A stretch of DNA of 64,000 nucleotides. Source: Solirubrobacterales bacterium. Lineage in GTDB: Bacteria; Actinomycetota; Thermoleophilia; Solirubrobacterales; JBBDJG01. The DNA lies in the NCBI GenBank assembly GCA_038203635.1, contig JBBRDT010000002.1:5030-69029 (forward strand). The letters run 5' to 3'. Shown piece by piece: positions 19 through 45,556 of this stretch (position 1 is the first letter of the stretch; each line of letters opens with the position of its first letter). The notes under the pieces are model-generated. The model was not told where the DNA came from, made no database searches, and worked only from the letters and a program-made list of their open reading frames with translations. A program made the position numbers and the translations under genes.

Positions 19-1500
19 ATGCCCTCGACGCGCTCGACGGAGAGGCGCCGATGGCCGCGACGAGCACCGATGGCAACGGGCTCGCAACGGCCACGGTTCT
101 CGATCCTCCCTGACCAACTGTCAGCTTTGCACTCCGATCAAGAGCTCCGCGTCGCAATCGTCGGCGCAGGACCGGCCGGCTTCTATGCCGCCGGGGCCCT
201 GCTCGCCACCGAGCGGCCAGTCCGCGTCGACCTGTTCGATCGCCTGCCGACGCCGTTCGGGCTGGTGCGCGCGGGCGTCGCGCCGGACCACCCGAAGATC
301 AAGTCCGTCGTGCGGGTCTACGAGAAGACCGCCGCAAAGGAGGGCTTCCGTTTCTTCGGGGGCGTCGAGCTCGGGCGCGACCTGCATCGCGCGGATCTCC
401 TCGAGCGCTACCACGCGGTGATCTACGCGATCGGCGCGGCGACCGACCGGCGCCTGGGGATCCCCGGAGAGGACCTGCAGGGGTCCGAGGCAGCCACGAC
501 CTTCGTGGGCTGGTACAACGGCCACCCCGACCACCCGGACCGCGAGTTCGACCTCGGCGACTGCGAGCGAGTGGTTGTGATCGGCAACGGCAATGTCGCA
601 ATCGACTGCGCGCGGATGCTGGCGCTGAGCGCCGATGAGCTGCGGAAGACCGATACGGCCGATCACGCGATCGACCTGCTGGCGTCCGATGCGGTCAAGG
701 AGATCGTGATCCTGGGCCGCCGCGGTCCGGTGCAGGCGGCCTTCACCAACCCCGAGCTGCTGGAGCTGGGTGAGCTCGAGCAGGCGGACGTGATCGTCGA
801 CCCGGCGGACCTCGAACTGGACGAGGCGTCGCAGGCCTGGCTCGACTCCGACGAGTGCAACAAGACCACGCGCGAGAACGTACGGATCCTGCGCGAGTAC
901 GCCGCGCGCGAGCCCGCCGGGAAGCCGAAGCGGATCATCTTGAGGTTCCTCACCTCCCCGGTCGAGCTGCAGGGGGATGGGCGGGTCGAGCGCATCGTGG
1001 TGGAGCGCAACCGCCTCGAGCCGCGTGACGACGGTTCACTGGCGGCACGGCCGACCGGCGACCGGGACACGCTCGACTGCAGCTTGGTGCTGCGCTCGAT
1101 CGGCTACAAGGGCATCGCGATTCCAGAGGTTCCGTTCGACGAGCGCCGCGGCACGATCCCCAACGTCGCAGGCCGTGTCGTCGACGGGGAGCACCACGTG
1201 ACAGGGGAGTACGTGACGGGCTGGATCCGCCGCGGCCCCAGCGGCGTGATCGGCACGAACAAGAAGGACGGGCAGGAGGCCGCGACCAGCCTGCTCGAGG
1301 ACGCCGAGGCCGGTCTGCTGAACACGCCGGTGACCGACGGCGACATCGCTGACCTGCTCGCCGAGCGCGGTGTCGAGCCCATCAGCTGGCAGGGATGGGA
1401 GCGCATCGACACGCACGAGCAGGACCTCGGCGCCGGCACCCGCCCACGTGTGAAGCTCACCCGCTACGAGCTATTGCACGGCGCCGCGCGAGAGAAGTAG
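19..1500 (+). CDS. FAD/NADPH-dependent ferredoxin reductase (FprA / adrenodoxin-reductase-like)
   Basis: 493-aa ORF. Has dinucleotide-binding motifs VAIVGAGPAGFYAA and VVVIGNGNVAIDCARM, typical of FprA-type reductases. An alternative ATG at 70 is plausible. Confidence 0.8.
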   Translation: MPSTRSTERRRWPRRAPMATGSQRPRFSILPDQLSALHSDQELRVAIVGAGPAGFYAAGALLATERPVRVDLFDRLPTPFGLVRAGVAPDHPKIKSVVRVYEKTAAKEGFRFFGGVELGRDLHRADLLERYHAVIYAIGAATDRRLGIPGEDLQGSEAATTFVGWYNGHPDHPDREFDLGDCERVVVIGNGNVAIDCARMLALSADELRKTDTADHAIDLLASDAVKEIVILGRRGPVQAAFTNPELLELGELEQADVIVDPADLELDEASQAWLDSDECNKTTRENVRILREYAAREPAGKPKRIILRFLTSPVELQGDGRVERIVVERNRLEPRDDGSLAARPTGDRDTLDCSLVLRSIGYKGIAIPEVPFDERRGTIPNVAGRVVDGEHHVTGEYVTGWIRRGPSGVIGTNKKDGQEAATSLLEDAEAGLLNTPVTDGDIADLLAERGVEPISWQGWERIDTHEQDLGAGTRPRVKLTRYELLHGAAREK

Positions 1501-1501
1501 G

Positions 1502-1541
1502 CCGTCATTTCCTTAGCCGGAAATGACGGGAGCTCCGAAGG
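1502..1541 (+). terminator. Post-gene hairpin (CCGTCATTTCC / GGAAATGACGG, loop TTAGCC) with conserved tail GGGAGCTCCGAAGG
   Basis: Perfect 11-bp stem starting 2 nt after the fprA-like stop. Same architecture as the elements at 20657 and 23096. Confidence 0.6.
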
Positions 1542-1612
1542 CTCGGGACAGGGAGCTCCCGGCTTTCTGCGCTTGCAGAAAGACGGAATTCCTGTTTAGA
1601 ACGGCTTAGTTC

Positions 1613-1939
1613 CTAAGCCGTTCTAAACGACTGGCCGCAGCCGCAGGCTGCGATGACCTTCGGGTTGTTCACCGCGAAGCCGGCGCCCTGCAGGCCCTCG
1701 ACGTAGTCCACCTCGGACCCGTCGACGAACTCGAGACTCTCGGAGTCGACCAGCAGGCGGATGTCGCTGTGCTCGAAGACCTGGTCGCCGTCGCGCTTCT
1801 CGTCAAACGCAAGCGCGTACTGGAAGCCCGAACAGCCACCGCCACGGACCGCGACGCGCAGACCGGCCTCGGGACTGTCGGCCTGGCCGTTCATGAGCTC
1901 CTTGACCTTTGTGGCGGCGATGTCGGTAAGCGTGACCAA
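1613..1939 (-). CDS. erpA: Iron-sulfur cluster insertion protein, HesB/IscA/ErpA family
   Basis: The C-terminal about 108 aa of ORF 1613..2323 match the A-type carrier pattern (GGGCSGFQY ... CGCGQSF). In-frame TTG at 1939 is preceded by GGAGG; the upstream part of the ORF is Arg-rich shadow sequence. Confidence 0.8.
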   Translation of the reverse strand: MVTLTDIAATKVKELMNGQADSPEAGLRVAVRGGGCSGFQYALAFDEKRDGDQVFEHSDIRLLVDSESLEFVDGSEVDYVEGLQGAGFAVNNPKVIAACGCGQSFRTA

Positions 1940-2059
1940 GTGAATGAAACCTCCGTTATTACTTCGGTGCCCTTCCGCACCGCCTTTAGCTGACGACAGC
2001 CGGAATACAGCCATTGTAGCGGTGCCCCGGCGCGACGCCCAACGTGGTAGAAGGGGCCG

Positions 2060-2923
2060 GTGCAGCGCGTCGCCCTCGTCTCCGATACGACCGCCTACCT
2101 GCCGGCGGAGCTGGTCGAGCGCCACGGCATACAGCTGGTGAGCCTCTACGTGAACTGGGAGGACGCCAGCGAGCGCGAGGCGGACATGCCGAACTTCGAC
2201 GACTTCTACGCCCGCCTGCGGCAGGCGGATCGGCTGCCCACGACCTCCCAGCCCTCGATCGGCGACTTCATCGAGGTGTATGAGCCGCTCGTACGTGACG
2301 GTCTCGACGTGGTCTCGGTCCACATCTCAGGAGGCATCTCGGGCACGGTGGAGTCGGCCCGCCAGGCCAAGGAGCAGCTCGCGGCCGGCACGGGAGTGGA
2401 CCGCATCACGATCGTCGACTCGGAGACCGCAGCCGGAGGCATGGCCTTCGCGGTGCTGGCCGGGGCCCGCGCCGCGCAGGCGGGAGCTTCAGCGGAGGAG
2501 GTCGTCCAGCGCATCCGCACGACGCGCGAGCACCTGAAGATGTGGTTCGCGGTGGACACGCTCGAGTACCTGCGCCGCGGCGGGAGGATCGGCGCCGCGT
2601 CGGCGTGGCTCGGCTCGGCGCTCAAGATCAAGCCGATCCTCACGCTCGAGCAGGAGATCACGCCGATCGAGCGGGTGCGCACAGGCGCCAAGGCGCTGCG
2701 GCGGTTGGTCGAGTACGCCGAGCAGCGGCATGTCGACGGTGCCGACGCGTGGGTCGTGCAGCACATCCGGGCGCCCGACGAGGCCGCCCAGCTGGTCGCG
2801 GAGGTCGAGAAGTTCATGGGCCACCCGCCATTGTTCGTGTCCGAGGTCGGGCCGGTGCTCGGGACGCACGTCGGGCCGGGTCTGCTGGGCATCGGCGGCG
2901 TGCCGCCGAGCGATCTCGAGTAA
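2060..2923 (+). CDS. DegV family fatty-acid-binding protein
   Basis: 287-aa ORF with GTG start. N-terminus VALVSDTTAYLP and overall length are typical of the DegV family. Confidence 0.8.
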   Translation: MQRVALVSDTTAYLPAELVERHGIQLVSLYVNWEDASEREADMPNFDDFYARLRQADRLPTTSQPSIGDFIEVYEPLVRDGLDVVSVHISGGISGTVESARQAKEQLAAGTGVDRITIVDSETAAGGMAFAVLAGARAAQAGASAEEVVQRIRTTREHLKMWFAVDTLEYLRRGGRIGAASAWLGSALKIKPILTLEQEITPIERVRTGAKALRRLVEYAEQRHVDGADAWVVQHIRAPDEAAQLVAEVEKFMGHPPLFVSEVGPVLGTHVGPGLLGIGGVPPSDLE

Positions 2924-8768: not shown

Positions 8769-9775
8769 CGGCCCTGACCGTCGCGATCACCGGCCCGACG
8801 GGTGACATCGGGCGCTCGGTGGTACGGGCGCTCGAACGGAGCCGGGAGGTCGGCCGGATCATCGGTATGGCGCGCCGCCCGTTCGATCCCGCCGACCACG
8901 GGTGGAAGCGCACGGAGTACCGGCAGGGGGACGTGCTCGATCGCGCCTCGGTGGATGAGCTGGTCGCAGAGGCCGACGTGGTGGTGCACCTCGCATTCCT
9001 GATCTTCGGCGGCCACGACGAGACCCGGGAGGTGAACCTGCGGGGCTCCCGGAACGTCTTCGAGGCAACGGTCGCGGCCCGCGCTAAGCGCCTGGTCTAC
9101 ACGTCATCGGTCGCCGCCTACGGGTTCCACCGCGACAACCCGGACGTGTTGACCGAGGACACCCCGCCGCTCGGGACGCCCGGCTTCTATTACTCCGCAC
9201 AGAAGGCTGAGCTGGAGCGGCTGCTGCAGGAGATCGCGGCGGACGCCCCGACCGACGTCTATGTGTTCCGGCCGTGCATCGTGGCCGGGTCGGACGCGCC
9301 CACGCTGATCGAGGGCTTCACCGGCCAGAAGGTCTTCGGCCGGACGGTGCGGCACGTGTGGCGGCTGCTCGAGGCGCTGCCCATCATCAGCCCCGTGTTG
9401 CCCGACGCCGGCGTCGCGTTCCAGCTGGTGCACCACGACGACGTCGCGAGCGCGGTGCGGGCCGCGGTGCTGGGCCGGGGCACCCCCGGCACGTACAACC
9501 TTGCTGCCGATGACGCGATCAGGGTCCGCGACGTCGCCAGCGCCCTCGGCTGGCAGTCCGTGCCGGTTCCCGGCGTCGCGCTCGAGGCCCTCGGCGAGGT
9601 CGTCTCACGCGTGCCCATGGCGCCTGCCGAAGCGGGATGGGTGGACGCCTTGCGCAAGCCCGTGCTGATGGACACCGCCAAGGCGCGGCGCGAGCTGCGC
9701 TGGCGAGTGCGACACGACGCTCGGGAAACGCTCGCGGAGACCGTCGCGGCGGCCCGTGAGGCCAGCATCATCTAG
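8747..9775 (+). CDS. NAD-dependent epimerase/dehydratase (SDR) family protein
   Basis: ITGPTGDIGRSVV Rossmann motif and a YSAQK catalytic motif. The ORF 8231..9775 upstream extension is Arg/Pro-rich and overlaps the divergent gene; start set at in-frame GTG 8747. Confidence 0.7.
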   Translation: MASADRSPALTVAITGPTGDIGRSVVRALERSREVGRIIGMARRPFDPADHGWKRTEYRQGDVLDRASVDELVAEADVVVHLAFLIFGGHDETREVNLRGSRNVFEATVAARAKRLVYTSSVAAYGFHRDNPDVLTEDTPPLGTPGFYYSAQKAELERLLQEIAADAPTDVYVFRPCIVAGSDAPTLIEGFTGQKVFGRTVRHVWRLLEALPIISPVLPDAGVAFQLVHHDDVASAVRAAVLGRGTPGTYNLAADDAIRVRDVASALGWQSVPVPGVALEALGEVVSRVPMAPAEAGWVDALRKPVLMDTAKARRELRWRVRHDARETLAETVAAAREASII

Positions 9776-20132: not shown

Positions 20133-20654
20133 ATGTTTCGCTGGTACGTCATAAACACATATTCCGGCCACGAGAACAAGGTCAAGCACAACATCGAGCA
20201 CCGTGTGTCGACCATGGAGCAGCAGTCGAACATCCGCCAGGTGGTCGTCCCGACCGAGCAGGTCTCGGAGATGAAGAACGGCCAGAAGGTGCAGACGGAG
20301 CGCCGCACGATGCCCGGCTACGTGCTCGTCAACATGGAGATGAACGACGACACGTGGACCCTGGTCAAGAACACGCCCGGAGTGACGGGGTTCGTGGGCT
20401 CTCGCGACAAGCCGCTGCCGCTCAGCAAGCCCGAGGTCGACCGGCTCATGCACCGCGAGACGGCCGAGCGCCCCCGCACGCGCGCCCAGTTCTCCATCGG
20501 TGAGTCCGTGAAGGTGATCTCCGGCCCGCTCTCGGACTTCTCCGGCGAGATCGCCGAGATCAACGAGGACGCCGCGAAGCTGAAGGTCCTGGTATCCATC
20601 TTCGGCCGCGAGACGCCGGTCGAGGTCGGCTACGACCAGGTGAAGAAGATATGA
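20133..20654 (+). CDS. nusG: Transcription termination/antitermination factor NusG
   Basis: WYVINTYSGHENKV NGN domain and a KOW domain. Conserved synteny. Confidence 0.97.
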   Translation: MFRWYVINTYSGHENKVKHNIEHRVSTMEQQSNIRQVVVPTEQVSEMKNGQKVQTERRTMPGYVLVNMEMNDDTWTLVKNTPGVTGFVGSRDKPLPLSKPEVDRLMHRETAERPRTRAQFSIGESVKVISGPLSDFSGEIAEINEDAAKLKVLVSIFGRETPVEVGYDQVKKI

Positions 20655-20656
20655 GC

Positions 20657-20696
20657 CGGATTTCGCTTAGCCGCGAAATCCGGGAGCTCCGAGGGT
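20657..20696 (+). terminator. Post-gene hairpin (CCGGATTTCGC / GCGAAATCCGG, loop TTAGCC) with conserved tail GGGAGCTCCGAGGG
   Basis: Perfect 11-bp stem starting 3 nt after the nusG stop. Second copy of the element family. Confidence 0.6.
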
Positions 20697-20706
20697 TCTA
20701 AGACCG

Positions 20707-21132
20707 ATGGCCAGAAAAGTTCTCACCATGATCAAGCTCCAGATCCCCGCCGGTGCGGCGAACCCTGCACCGCCCGTCGGCCCTGCGCTGGGTCAGCACG
20801 GGGTCAACATCATGGAGTTCTGCAAGGCCTTCAATGCCCAGACCCAGGCCGACGCCGGCACCATCATCCCGGTCGAGATCACGGTCTTCGAGGACCGCTC
20901 GTTCACGTTCATCACCAAGACGCCCCCGGCGGCCGTGCTGATCAAGCAGGCGATCGGCCTCGAGAAGGGCTCCGCCGAGCCGCACCGTGACAAGGTCGGG
21001 ACGATCAGCCGCGACCAGGTCCGCCAGATCGCCGAGACCAAGCTTCCGGACCTGAACGCGCACGACGTCGACCAGGCGATGAAGATCATCGAGGGCACGG
21101 CCCGCTCGATGGGTGTGGACGTCAGAGCATGA
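20707..21132 (+). CDS. rplK: 50S ribosomal protein L11
   Basis: Sequence ([35 protein letters not shown]) and synteny. Confidence 0.98.
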
Positions 21133-21999: not shown

Positions 22000-22704
22000 A
22001 TGAGAAAAGAACAGAAGGCCCAGAAGATCGATGAGATCGCCGCCCACCTCGGGGAGGCGCAGGCCGTGTACGCCGTCGACTACCGGGGCCTGAGCGTCCC
22101 GCAGGCGGCTGAGCTGCGGGCGAGCCTGCGCGAGCACGATGCCACGTTCCGAGTGGTGAAGAACACGCTCACGCTGCGGGCCGCCGACAAGGCCGGCATG
22201 GACCAGCTCAAGGAGCTGGTCGCCGAGGGACCGACCGCGCTCACATTCGTGCGGGGGGACGTCGCCCTCGCGGCGAAAGTCCTGGACACCTTCTCGCGCC
22301 AGGCCGATGTCCTGCAGTTCAAGGGCGGCCTGATGGACGGCCGCGCGCTGGAAGCGGACGAGATCCGCCAGCTCGCGCGCCTGCCGAGCCGCGACGTGCT
22401 CGTCGCCCAGTTCGCCGGAGTGGTCGCGTCTCCGATCACCGGTCTCGTGCGCGGCCTCGGGTCGCTGCTCGGGGGGCTGGCGGTGGCCCTGGGGCAGATC
22501 CAGTTGCAGCGGGCATCCGAGGCGCCGGCGGCAGAGGCGCCCGCAACCGAGGTAGCCCCGGTAGCCGAAGAGGCTCCGGCAGCCGAGGAGACCCCAGAGG
22601 CAGCAGCCGAGGAGCCGGCGGCAGACGCTCAGCAGGAGCCAGATTCAGATTCAGAGTCAGATTCAAATTCGGATCCAGAGGATGCCGAGAAGGAGGCGCA
22701 ATAG
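22000..22704 (+). CDS. rplJ: 50S ribosomal protein L10 with an acidic C-terminal tail
   Basis: ATG at 22000 ([14 protein letters not shown]...). L10 core followed by about 60 aa rich in Ala/Glu/Pro/Asp/Ser. Confidence 0.93.
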
Positions 22705-22706
22705 CA

Positions 22707-23093
22707 GTGGCTACCAGTACGCAGGAATGGATCGAGGAGCTCAAGGCGATCTCCGTGATGGAGCTCGCCGAGCGGATCAAGGCACTTGAGGAGGAGTTCG
22801 GCGTCTCGGCGACCGCCGTTGCGGCGGCAGCGCCCGCGGCGGGAGGCGCCGCGGATGGCGACGGCGCGGGCGAGGAGGAGAAGACCTCCTTCGATGTCGT
22901 CCTGACGTCCCCGGGCGACAAGAAGATCCAGGTGATCAAGGTCGTCCGGGCCGCAACAGGCCTGGGGCTCAAGGAGGCCAAGGCGCTCGTCGACGAGGCG
23001 CCCAAGGCCGTCAAGGAGGGTCTCGACAAGGACGAGGCCGAGAAGCTCAAGGGCGAGCTCGAGGAGGCCGGCGGGCAGGTCGAGGTCAAATAA
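22707..23093 (+). CDS. rplL: 50S ribosomal protein L7/L12
   Basis: GTG start with AGGAGG RBS. C-terminal domain [27 protein letters not shown]. Confidence 0.98.
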
Positions 23094-23095
23094 AA

Positions 23096-23135
23096 CCGGA
23101 ATTTGCCAAGCGGCAAATTCCGGGAGCTCGAAGGG
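23096..23135 (+). terminator. Post-gene hairpin (CCGGAATTTGCC / GGCAAATTCCGG) with conserved tail GGGAGCTCGAAGGG
   Basis: Perfect 12-bp stem starting 3 nt after the rplL stop. Third copy of the element family. Confidence 0.6.
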
Positions 23136-23282
23136 TCCGTCTTCAGGCGAGGCGCGGCCGTCTCGTTTGACCCTTCGGAAACGCAGAACCCTTTGGTACT
23201 ATGTGCGGTCGCGCCGTAGTTTTGCCTGCCCTTTCGCCCAAACGCAATTGCCCGTTTGAGCCGGACTTAGAGGAGCCGCCAG

Positions 23283-26882: not shown

Positions 26883-26981
26883 GCCGTTACGCCGTTACGC
26901 CGTGCGCCGGAAAAAGCGGCGAACGGCGAACGGCGCACGGCGCACTTGGGGCGAAATCAGCGACTGACCAAAGGAACACAC

Positions 26982-44905: not shown

Positions 44906-45556
44906 ATGGCGGAAGACGAAAAGGACCAGCAGCCCACAGAGGCAGAGGCCCCGGCTGAGGCAGAGGCCCCGGCTCCGGAAGAGCCCGTGGCGGAGACTCC
45001 CGCCCCGGAGCCGGAGCCGGAAGCGCCCGCCGCCGCGCCGGCTCCCGCCGCCGAGGCCGAGCCCCCCGCACCGCAGCTGTCTCCGAAGGAGCGCCGCCGC
45101 CTTGCACGCTCCACCGCCACCGGCCCCGGCGGCCCGCCCAGATCTCTGGAGGACCGCCTGCGCGAGCGCGCCGAGGGGCGCGCGCGGAAGGCAAAGGAGC
45201 GCACGCGCTGGCGCGCGAAGCGGAAGGCCCGTGATTCTGAAAAAAACCGTGATTCTGTAAGCAGAATCACGGGTGGGCAGCAGGACAGCCCTTCGGCCCC
45301 GCAGGAGAGTGTCGCGCGCAAGACGCGCCAGGGCGTGGTCGTGTCGAACAAGGCGGACAAGACGATCACCGTCCGCATCGACCGCGTCGCCCGGCACCGG
45401 GTCTATGGAAAGGTCATGCGGGAGACCGGCACGCTGCACGCCCACGACGAGCGCAACGAGGCGAACGAGGGCGATGTCGTGCGGGTCGGCGAATCGCGCC
45501 CGCTGTCGCGTACCAAGCGCTGGCGGCTGCTCGAAGTCCTCGAGAAGGCCCGCTAG
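44906..45556 (+). CDS. rpsQ: 30S ribosomal protein S17, with an apparent 135-aa low-complexity N-terminal extension
   Basis: S17 core ([23 protein letters not shown]...) begins near 45313. The only in-frame canonical start after the rpmC stop is the ATG at 44906. Confidence 0.8.

What the first reader, a model, noticed from the sequence alone, without database searches (positions are those of the whole stretch)
1502..1560. Recurring post-gene module: AT-cored hairpin followed by a conserved GGGAGCTCCGARGG tail (three copies)
Three genes are each followed within 2-3 nt of their stop by a perfect 11-12 bp hairpin: the fprA-like gene (1502-1541), nusG (20657-20696) and rplL (23096-23135). The stems differ in sequence but share the pattern CCG-N2-ATTT-N2-3. 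Two of the three share the loop TTAGCC. Each hairpin runs directly into the same tail: GGGAGCTCCGAAGG, GGGAGCTCCGAGGG and GGGAGCTCGAAGGG. The tail core GGAGCTCC is itself palindromic. At the first locus a second GGGAGCTCCC copy (1551-1560) could pair with it. Stem sequence varies while structure, loop and tail are kept, so this looks like a selected RNA or DNA element rather than a generic GC-rich terminator. Possibilities include a lineage-specific terminator class, a protein-binding site or a REP-like element. A similar hairpin also occurs inside the rpsQ extension (45247-45272).
Basis: seen in the sequence. Interest (0 to 1): 0.6.

Follow-up and report, generated by a model that had tools for sequence, protein, structure and literature searches.

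The report
Stop-codon hairpin repeat family, Solirubrobacterales
The three hairpin-plus-tail modules are real copies of an apparently undescribed ~55-base palindromic DNA repeat that one family of uncultured soil actinobacteria carries in dozens of copies right behind stop codons; it behaves like REP or TRIT elements, not like a gene-specific regulator or an ordinary terminator.

Summary
Observation confirmed and extended. The three sites belong to a genome-wide family. There are about 35 solid copies in this 3.3-Mb MAG and 6-91 matches in relatives.

The unit, in order:
- stop codon;
- A-rich lead ending in GG;
- perfect 11-bp hairpin with loop TTAGNC (or c-AAGC-g);
- tail GAGCTC-Y-G-W-GGG.

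Main results:
- All 7 exact tails in the genome follow such a hairpin.
- 21 of 35 copies start 9 nt or less after a real ORF's stop (2.4% at random positions).
- The model matched 13 of 17 other genomes of the window's own family of Solirubrobacterales. It matched 0 of 23 in sister families and 0 of 150 sampled across the phylum.
- Orthologous sites show gain, loss, inversion and replacement between congeners, and tandem duplications occur. It therefore turns over as repeat DNA.
- No RAYT/Y1 transposase exists in any of 18 genomes, so it is not a REP/RAYT system.
- On the gene's sense strand there is no U-tract, and copies sit 23-37 nt before the next start codon. A sense terminator is unlikely.
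- The U-rich run lies on the antisense strand.

The scan noted this same family before on another piece of this genome, and similar families in other Solirubrobacterales genomes.

The parts
1498..1547 (+). Copy 1a: stop TAG (1498-1500), g, 28-nt hairpin 1502-1529 (11-bp stem, loop TTAGCC), tail GAGCTCCGAAGGCTCGGG 1530-1547. It follows the 499-aa 'fprA-like' ORF.
   Evidence: CM 58.6 bits, E 5.5e-8. G003 keeps an identical hairpin at the orthologous site and G004 lacks it.
1549..1586 (-). Copy 1b, inverted relative to 1a. On the minus strand it reads CCGTCTTTCTG cAAGCg CAGAAAGCCGG (1586-1559) plus tail GAGCTCCCTG (1558-1549). It lies 26 nt after the stop of the convergent gene 1613-2323(-). Its tail is the 'second GGGAGCTCCC'.
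   Evidence: (E 4.3e-4). G004 keeps it with one compensatory pair change, G003 lacks it, and G002 has a TTAGCC-loop copy there instead.
20652..20699 (+). Copy 2: nusG stop TGA (20652-20654), g, hairpin 20656-20683 (CCGGATTTCGC TTAGCC GCGAAATCCGG), tail GAGCTCCGAGGGTTCT. The rplK ATG is at 20707, 23 nt after the hairpin.
   Evidence: (59.2 bits). Among 80 related nusG loci only the closest relative, L071, has it.
23091..23139 (+). Copy 3: rplL stop TAA (23091-23093), aa, hairpin 23096-23123 (12-bp stem, loop AAGC), tail GAGCTCGAAGGGTCCG. On the minus strand the hairpin is followed by TTTTATTTGA.
   Evidence: (48.9 bits). The generic terminator scan calls it only on the minus strand. In G004 the copy after rplL is inverted.
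45247..45272 (+). Weak or sister-family hairpin CCGTGATTCT gTAAGC AGAATCACGG preceded by A7, with no GAGCTC tail. It lies in a frame that stays open through it (the putative S17 N-terminal extension).
   Evidence: (E 0.033).

Best explanation
**What it is (shown)**
The modules are copies of a small repeat family of about 55 nt that turns over as DNA and is confined to one family of uncultured soil Solirubrobacterales.
- Each unit has an A-rich lead ending in GG, a perfect 28-nt palindrome (11-bp arms, 6-nt centre TTAGNC or cAAGCg) and a conserved asymmetric tail, GAGCTC-Y-G-W-GGG.
- Copies are gained, lost, inverted, swapped for other sub-types and tandemly duplicated between close relatives.
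- No RAYT, TnpB or IS110 gene tracks their distribution.

**How it is maintained (inferred)**
- The mechanism of spread is unknown.
- The near-perfect Watson-Crick symmetry of the arms is kept at the DNA level, for example by one arm templating the other through quasi-palindrome correction. Stepwise RNA compensation is the less likely route.

**Why it sits where it does (inferred)**
- Copies survive almost only directly behind stop codons, in the orientation that puts the A-rich lead next to the stop.
- In that orientation the sense RNA carries a stable hairpin (about -20 kcal/mol) with no U-tract, so it does not terminate the operon.
- The sense hairpin most likely acts as a 3'-end barrier or processing point, as REP and TRIT elements are thought to.
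- The opposite strand reads hairpin plus U-rich run. That is the geometry of an intrinsic terminator, and it can stop convergent or antisense transcription at the gene border.
For: **Family and anatomy**
- nhmmer and covariance-model searches give about 35-41 copies.
- The consensus comes from 77 copies in 7 genomes of 3 genera.
- A makes up 52-67% of positions -7 to -3, against 13-20% after ordinary stop codons in this genome.
- Tail position +7 is a pyrimidine in 66 of 67 copies and +8 is G in 65 of 67.

**Position and polarity**
- 24 of 35 copies have the ORF end on the lead side. Only 3 have an ORF end on the tail side alone.

**Range**
- Own family f1: 13 of 17 other genomes. Sister families: 0 of 23. 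Phylum sample: 0 of 150.
- Record titles name uncultured Solirubrobacterales MAGs.

**Turnover at orthologous sites**
- The nusG-rplK spacer is normally 0-38 nt. It holds the element only in this genome and its closest relative.
- After rplL: same orientation with a different stem in G003, inverted in G004, not found in G001 and G002.
- Site 1 shows independent presence, absence and replacement of both copies.
- Tandem duplications of 35-78-nt units occur.

**Pairing**
- 97% of cells are paired, and 7 of 11 pairs change on both sides.
- Most changes are transversion swaps (GC<->UA, AU<->UA, CG<->GC).
- Only 7 of 770 internal pairs are non-Watson-Crick, and only one of those is G.U on the sense strand.
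- The L071 orthologue differs by two compensatory pairs, while its loop and GAGCTCC are unchanged. Its flanking genes are 91% identical.

**Not a sense terminator**
- 0 of 77 copies have at least 5 T in 8 on the sense side, against 32 of 77 on the antisense side (51 of 77 with at least 4 T).
- The generic scan calls the rplL copy only on the minus strand.
- At least 6 copies lie 23-37 nt before the next start codon.
- Mycobacterial RNA polymerase needs a U-tract but tolerates imperfect ones (PMC3993855).

**No transposase**
- PF01797: 0 of 18 genomes, with positive controls.
- TnpB in 3 of 18 and IS110 in 7 of 18, neither tracking the element.
- The genes next to the tails are unrelated housekeeping genes.
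Against: - Every statement about what the hairpin does on RNA is inference.
- Selection alone does not easily explain why copies start 0-9 nt after the stop and not anywhere in the 3' spacer. No insertion mechanism, target-site duplication or clean empty site was found.
- Strong conservation of the asymmetric loop and tail across three genera, and an identical hairpin at site 1 in G000 and G003 despite about 83% flank identity, could mean a trans-acting factor reads them. That would be a dedicated function and not a tolerated repeat.
- Only 10 of 35 copies have a convergent gene for the antisense terminator to serve.
- Members were found partly by their pairing, so the pairing percentages are somewhat circular.
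Confidence: 0.6

Rival explanations
1. A dedicated, factor-dependent RNA 3'-end signal, which is the first reader's 'lineage-specific terminator class'. The sense-strand hairpin, its UUAGNC loop and the GAGCUCYG tail would be read by a lineage-specific protein or RNase. Candidates are RNase III on the stem, RNase E just 3' of the stem, or a pause at the invariant Y-G step 7-8 nt after the stem. This would form or process mRNA 3' ends right after the stop codon.
For: - Loop and tail are conserved across genera while the stems vary.
- Polarity relative to the upstream gene is strict.
- The orthologous copy in L071 keeps loop and tail while its flanks diverge.
- TRIT, the closest analogue, now appears to be processed and not to act as a terminator (PMC13714241).
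- The rplL-rpoB spacer is a classic attenuator and processing site in E. coli (own knowledge).
Against: - Orthologous sites lack the element in most congeners, and after rplL in G004 it is inverted. Neither is expected of a required signal.
- The stems contain almost no G.U pairs, and the changes are mostly transversion swaps.
- A tail-less subfamily exists.
- Match counts range from 6 to 91 among relatives.
- No RNA data were available.
Confidence: 0.2
2. A DNA-level recognition site. The 11-6-11 palindrome plus asymmetric tail would be the folded single-strand or duplex substrate of an unrecognised recombinase or nuclease. Such an enzyme might be HUH-like, reading a hairpin with a cleavage site in the 3' flank, or Xer-like, using a 28-bp core. 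It would insert and move the copies.
For: - The 28-bp 11+6+11 geometry.
- Near-perfect Watson-Crick arms with no G.T preference.
- An asymmetric conserved centre and 3' flank.
- Gain, loss, inversion and replacement at the same sites.
- Tandem arrays.
Against: - No Y1 transposase occurs in 18 genomes.
- TnpB and IS110 do not co-vary with the element.
- No shared gene lies next to the copies.
- The arms differ between copies, which argues against sequence-specific arm binding.
- No target-site duplication was seen.
Confidence: 0.15
3. Chance resemblance among ordinary independent terminators.
For: Within the window alone the tail pattern with 2 mismatches is not above expectation.
Against: - 7 of 7 exact tails follow the hairpin.
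- p~1e-53 for GAGCTC directly after the hairpin.
- 0 matches in 150 other genomes of the phylum.
- The same consensus appears in three genera.
Confidence: 0.01

Closest known systems
TRIT (Tuberculosis Rho-independent terminator motif) of Mycobacterium (Gardner et al. 2011, PMC3152330)
   Same: - A conserved sequence-plus-structure hairpin motif in an actinobacterium.
- Roughly 150 copies per genome (147 in M. tuberculosis).
- Restricted to one lineage.
- A very narrow position relative to the stop codon.
- No canonical U-tract role established. Mapped termination sites hardly overlap TRITs (bioRxiv 10.1101/2022.06.01.494293), and processing by RNase III is now suggested (PMC13714241).
   Different: - TRIT starts inside the CDS, around -8. 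This element starts +1 to +9 after the stop.
- TRIT is described as largely bidirectional and palindromic. This element is polar, with an asymmetric tail and an A-rich lead.
- The taxon differs.
- No sequence relationship was shown: the model found nothing outside the window's own family.
REP / REPIN / BIME elements of Proteobacteria, mobilised by RAYT
   Same: - Short extragenic palindromes in tens to hundreds of copies.
- Mostly at gene 3' ends.
- Variable between close relatives.
- Found in clusters and tandem arrangements.
- Thought to act as mRNA 3' stabilisers.
- In E. coli many lie within about 15 nt of stop codons (Liang, Rudd & Deutscher 2015; own recollection, not checked here).
   Different: - No RAYT/Y1 transposase in any of 18 genomes.
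- The conserved flank is a 3' GAGCTC tail, not a 5' GTAG head.
- The stems are perfect and vary between copies, whereas REPs have imperfect stems around a master sequence.
- Most copies are singletons, not inverted doublets.
Neisseria DNA-uptake-sequence inverted pairs and Correia elements at gene 3' ends (as summarised in PMC13714241)
   Same: Lineage-specific repeated sequences that end up forming the hairpins at gene 3' ends. Presence differs between sister species at the same gene.
   Different: - DUS hairpins have a fixed arm sequence and a U-tract, and they act as terminators.
- Correia elements are about 100-160 nt long with terminal inverted repeats and target duplications.
- Neither description fits here.
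MIRU (mycobacterial interspersed repetitive units; own knowledge)
   Same: Small repeats inside operon spacers of an actinobacterium, oriented with the flanking genes and lying close to stop and start codons.
   Different: - MIRUs are 46-101-bp tandem units carrying small ORFs, not single perfect hairpins.
- The short-ORF feature was not tested here.

Membership tests
REP/REPIN-RAYT system | Many dispersed short extragenic palindromes | tested here: met
   About 35-41 copies in G000 and up to 91 or more matches in G011.
REP/REPIN-RAYT system | A RAYT (Y1 HUH transposase, PF01797) encoded in the genome | tested here: not met
   0 of 18 genomes of the family, including the complete G011. Control genomes gave matches.
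REP/REPIN-RAYT system | Conserved 5' tetranucleotide head (GTAG-type) next to an imperfect palindrome | tested here: not met
   The 5' side is an A-rich lead ending in GG. The conserved flank is the 3' GAGCTCYG. The stems are 99% Watson-Crick.
TRIT | Conserved hairpin motif with a narrow distribution at stop codons | tested here: met
   21 of 35 copies start 9 nt or less after a stop, against 2.4% of random positions.
TRIT | Motif overlaps the end of the CDS (about -8) and is largely bidirectional | tested here: not met
   Copies start 0-9 nt after the stop and are polar.
TRIT | Sequence homology to the Mycobacterium TRIT model | not testable with these tools
   No TRIT model or consensus was at hand. 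Rfam gave no match. R1 found nothing in 150 genomes of the phylum.
Canonical intrinsic terminator of the upstream gene | Hairpin followed at once by a U-rich tract on the sense strand | tested here: not met
   0 of 77 copies have at least 5 T in 8 on the sense strand. The tail is GAGCTCYG.
Canonical intrinsic terminator on the opposite strand | Hairpin followed by a U-rich tract | tested here: inconclusive
   32 of 77 copies have at least 5 T in 8 and 51 of 77 have at least 4 T. The rplL copy is called on the minus strand. No RNA ends are available.
MITE | Terminal inverted repeats with target-site duplication and a parent transposon | tested here: inconclusive
   No duplication is visible at nusG|rplK, rplL or site 1, but the empty sites are too diverged to align. 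No parent element was found.
CRISPR array | Repeats separated by unique spacers | tested here: not met
   The arrays are whole-unit tandem duplications, 98-99% identical including the 'spacers'.

The most novel reading that the evidence does not exclude
The conserved loop and tail could be the handles of an unknown, RAYT-independent machinery specific to this lineage. Such a machinery would place, invert and renew perfect hairpins exactly at translation stop sites. That would amount either to a new way of mobilising small palindromes or to a factor-dependent system for forming 3' ends. Solirubrobacterales may use the same principle with several different hairpin families.
Probability: 0.15. 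Interest if true: 0.8.

Novelty: new variant of a known kind. Interest (0 to 1): 0.45.

Why it matters
If the reading holds, one family of abundant soil actinobacteria carries its own REP/TRIT-like element. That element has three unusual traits: it is placed within a few bases of stop codons, it has a fixed polarity, and its arms change yet stay perfectly symmetric. No known REP transposase is present.

- It offers a second actinobacterial case beside TRIT for asking how such motifs shape mRNA 3' ends in high-GC genomes that have few canonical terminators.
- It raises the open question of what spreads these palindromes.
- In practice, these repeats explain variable spacers in otherwise conserved ribosomal-protein operons. 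They should not be annotated as gene-specific regulators or terminators.

Tried and rejected
- **Window-only significance.** The tail pattern with mismatches is not above chance within the window, so I moved to the whole genome.
- **Rfam.** No family matched at gathering score for the window. A permissive search around site 1 gave only spurious miRNA hits on the neighbouring 16-bp palindrome.
- **RAYT/IS200 (PF01797).** None in 18 genomes.
- **TnpB (PF07282) and IS110 (PF01548).** Present in a few genomes, but not co-distributed with the element.
- **Copies as terminator ends of a shared gene on the tail side.** The neighbours are unrelated housekeeping genes.
- **A second mini-hairpin in the tail (GAGCUC-YGW-GGGYUC).** The 5' half is invariant, one pair is mostly unpaired, and there is no covariation. 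Not supported.
- **CRISPR-like arrays in G011.** They are plain tandem duplications.
- **A-rich lead as the ordinary post-stop context.** Rejected.
- **Element supplies the gene's stop codon.** At nusG and rplL the protein C-termini and stop positions are the same with and without the element. The idea is therefore not needed there. It is still open elsewhere, because a TGAATAGG lead recurs at unrelated loci.
- **Crude GC3-based gene calls.** Too noisy for a clean operon classification, so I used direct ORF-end tests instead.
- **Literature searches for this lineage.** Nothing relevant found.

Full report
**1. The observation**

Each is a perfect hairpin of 28 nt in total: 11-bp arms with the loop TTAGCC, or 12-bp arms with the loop AAGC. 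Each starts 1-2 nt after a stop codon and runs straight into GAGCTC(C)GARGG.

The 'second GGGAGCTCCC' at 1551-1560 is the tail of a fourth copy on the minus strand (1549-1586). That copy belongs to the convergent gene 1613-2323(-).

Within the window alone the tail is not statistically remarkable. In the whole 3.33-Mb, 69% GC assembly it is:
- All 7 exact tails follow an AT-cored hairpin.
- A sequence-only nhmmer profile and a covariance model each recover about 35-41 copies.
- 20 of 35 hairpins are followed by exact GAGCTC, against 7.7e-4 per position.

**2. Anatomy**

I compared 77 copies from seven genomes of three genera. The unit reads:
- stop codon;
- an A-rich lead (A is 52-67% at positions -7 to -3), usually ending in GG;
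- an 11-bp stem;
- the loop TTAG(C/G/A)C, or cAAGCg;
- the second arm of the 11-bp stem;
- the tail GAGCTC-Y-G-W-GGG-YYCG.

Tail position +7 is a pyrimidine in 66 of 67 copies and +8 is G in 65 of 67.

The lead is not the normal context after a stop codon, where A is only 13-20% at every position.

A subfamily with the stem CGGGATTTCC lacks the tail.

The stems differ between copies yet remain paired. 97% of cells are paired, and 7 of 11 pairs change on both sides. Only 7 of 770 internal pairs are non-Watson-Crick. Part of this is circular, because members were found partly by their pairing. The sequence-only search, however, returns the same set.

**3. Position and polarity**

- 24 of 35 copies have a long, high-GC3 ORF ending 30 nt or less before the hairpin on the same strand. 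For 21 of 35 the distance is 9 nt or less. Random positions give 6.6% and 2.4%.
- 10 of 35 also have a convergent ORF ending 5-26 nt beyond the hairpin on the tail side. Only 3 have that alone.
- TAA stops are over-represented next to copies: 7 of 24, against 8.5% genome-wide.

**4. Who has it**

Record titles of the closest loci name uncultured soil Solirubrobacterales MAGs. The model matches:
- 13 of 17 other genomes of the window's own family;
- 0 of 23 genomes from the five sister families of the order;
- 0 of 150 genomes sampled across the phylum.

Match counts run from 6 to 43 within the genus, and reach at least 91 in a complete genome of another genus.

**5. Behaviour at orthologous sites**

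*nusG-rplK.* In 69 related loci this spacer is mostly 0-38 nt. The element is present only here and in the closest relative, L071. Congeners have -1, 22, 80 or 87 nt, and the 87-nt spacer holds a different palindromic repeat.

In L071 the flanking genes are 91% identical. Its hairpin differs by two compensatory pairs and one mismatch. The loop and GAGCTCC are unchanged, while the sequence beyond the tail has diverged.

*After rplL.* G003 has a copy with a different stem and loop. G004 has the copy inverted, so the T-rich side follows the hairpin on the sense strand. G001 and G002 have no copy.

*Site 1.* G003 keeps copy 1a with an identical hairpin but lacks 1b. G004 lacks 1a and keeps 1b with one compensatory change. 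G002 has a TTAGCC-type copy where this genome has the AAGC type.

*Tandem duplications.* Whole units of 35-78 nt are tandemly duplicated. They are not CRISPR-like.

Taken together, this is the behaviour of repeat DNA that turns over quickly, not of an ancestral regulatory site.

**6. What moves it**

This is unknown.
- No Y1/RAYT transposase occurs in any of the 18 genomes, and the positive controls worked.
- TnpB and IS110-type genes occur sporadically and do not track the element.
- The genes beside the tails are unrelated housekeeping genes.
- No target duplication is visible, though the empty sites are too diverged for a clean test.

Two features fit maintenance of symmetry at the DNA level better than stepwise RNA compensation: transversion swaps dominate the paired changes (GC<->UA, AU<->UA, CG<->GC), and G.U pairs are almost absent. 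One arm templating the other, as in quasi-palindrome correction, would produce this. That is an inference.

**7. What it does**

On the sense strand no copy has a U-rich run after the stem (0 of 77 with at least 5 T in 8). On the antisense strand 32 of 77 do, and 51 of 77 have at least 4 T. The generic terminator scan calls the rplL copy only on the minus strand.

At least six copies lie 23-37 nt before the next co-directional start codon. One of these is nusG|rplK, where relatives have almost no spacer.

Mycobacterial RNA polymerase does not terminate at hairpins that lack U-tracts. It does terminate at imperfect U-tracts, helped by NusG (PMC3993855).

My best reading follows. All of it is inferred.
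- The orientation we see is the one that does not terminate the host transcript.
- On the mRNA the hairpin, at about -20 kcal/mol, acts as a 3' barrier or processing point directly after the stop codon.
- On the other strand it can stop convergent or antisense transcription at the gene border.
- Where termination is tolerable, as after rplL in G004, the other orientation occurs.

This reading does not explain the placement within a few bases of stop codons, or the strong conservation of loop and tail. A trans-acting reader of loop plus tail therefore remains a live rival.

**8. Comparison with known systems**

TRIT of Mycobacterium is the nearest described thing.
- It has 147 copies, conserved sequence and structure, a very narrow position at the stop codon, and is restricted to its genus (PMC3152330).
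- It shows little overlap with mapped termination sites (bioRxiv 10.1101/2022.06.01.494293).
- It is now suggested to be an RNase III substrate (PMC13714241).

This element differs in three ways: its position (after the stop, not overlapping it), its polarity, and its taxon.

REP/REPIN elements share the lifestyle, but the defining RAYT is missing.

Rfam holds nothing like it. Literature searches for this lineage found nothing relevant.

**9. Earlier notes of this scan**

The same family was noted before on another piece of this genome, as two inverted copies around a monooxygenase (e1-2311411). I saw those copies myself at C1:61684 and C1:63247.

Several other hairpin repeat families next to stop codons were reported from other Solirubrobacterales genomes. 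I re-tested range, turnover and RAYT absence independently for this family.

**10. Verdict**

The 'REP-like element' reading is supported, and the 'terminator of the upstream gene' reading is not. Function and mode of spread remain open.

Interest is moderate. It is a new variant of a known kind of element, and the scan has already met it repeatedly in this order.

Noticed in passing
window 1594-1628: A 16-bp perfect palindrome (GTTTAGAACGGCTTAG ttc CTAAGCCGTTCTAAAC). Its right arm is the last five codons plus the stop codon of the minus-strand gene 1613-2323. It is kept in G003 and G004, apparently with matching changes in both arms on a quick look. So this is a gene-specific hairpin that overlaps the stop codon, placed just before the family copy.
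   Followed up: partly
window 45231-45282; also seen at three other gene ends of the genome: A sister set of post-stop hairpins: A-rich lead, GC-rich 9-11-bp stem, apex CTG-(T/C)AAGC-AG, then GTTGG or GTGGG. The 'rpsQ extension' hairpin is of this type. The 5' arm CCGTGATTCTG is also directly repeated just upstream. The frame of the putative S17 extension stays open through it.
   Followed up: partly
L002 (G004) nusG-rplK spacer; compare window 26883-26945: In G004 the nusG-rplK spacer (87 nt) holds a different palindromic repeat built from GTTACGC-type 8-mers. This may be another dispersed repeat family.
   Followed up: no
whole genome G000: Stop-codon usage is unusual for a 69% GC genome: TGA 48%, TAG 43%, TAA 8.5% among 1501 high-confidence ORFs.
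   Followed up: no
G000:C29 near 8840-8870(-), C12 near 22455-22485(+), window 23195-23210: Several copies are followed within 20-35 nt by a -10-like box (TATACT, TACAAT, TACTAT). In two cases the box lies only 4-7 nt before the next start codon, which suggests leaderless transcripts starting just after the element.
   Followed up: no
G000:C10:21521-21649(-), C5:6243-6317, C83:1307-1387, C79:14234-14302, C3:13554-13647; G011:C1:13346-13674 and 2023565-2023906: Tandem arrays of partial or whole units with periods of 35, 37, 43, 73 and 78 nt. Some units begin in the loop, so later units lack the 5' arm.
   Followed up: partly
G000:C11:41668-41880(+), C13:371-583(-), C141:1773-2198(-), C112:1314-1640(-): Two TnpB-like (Cas12f1-like_TNB) and two IS110-type transposase matches in this genome. 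They are unlinked to the hairpin family as far as I checked.
   Followed up: no
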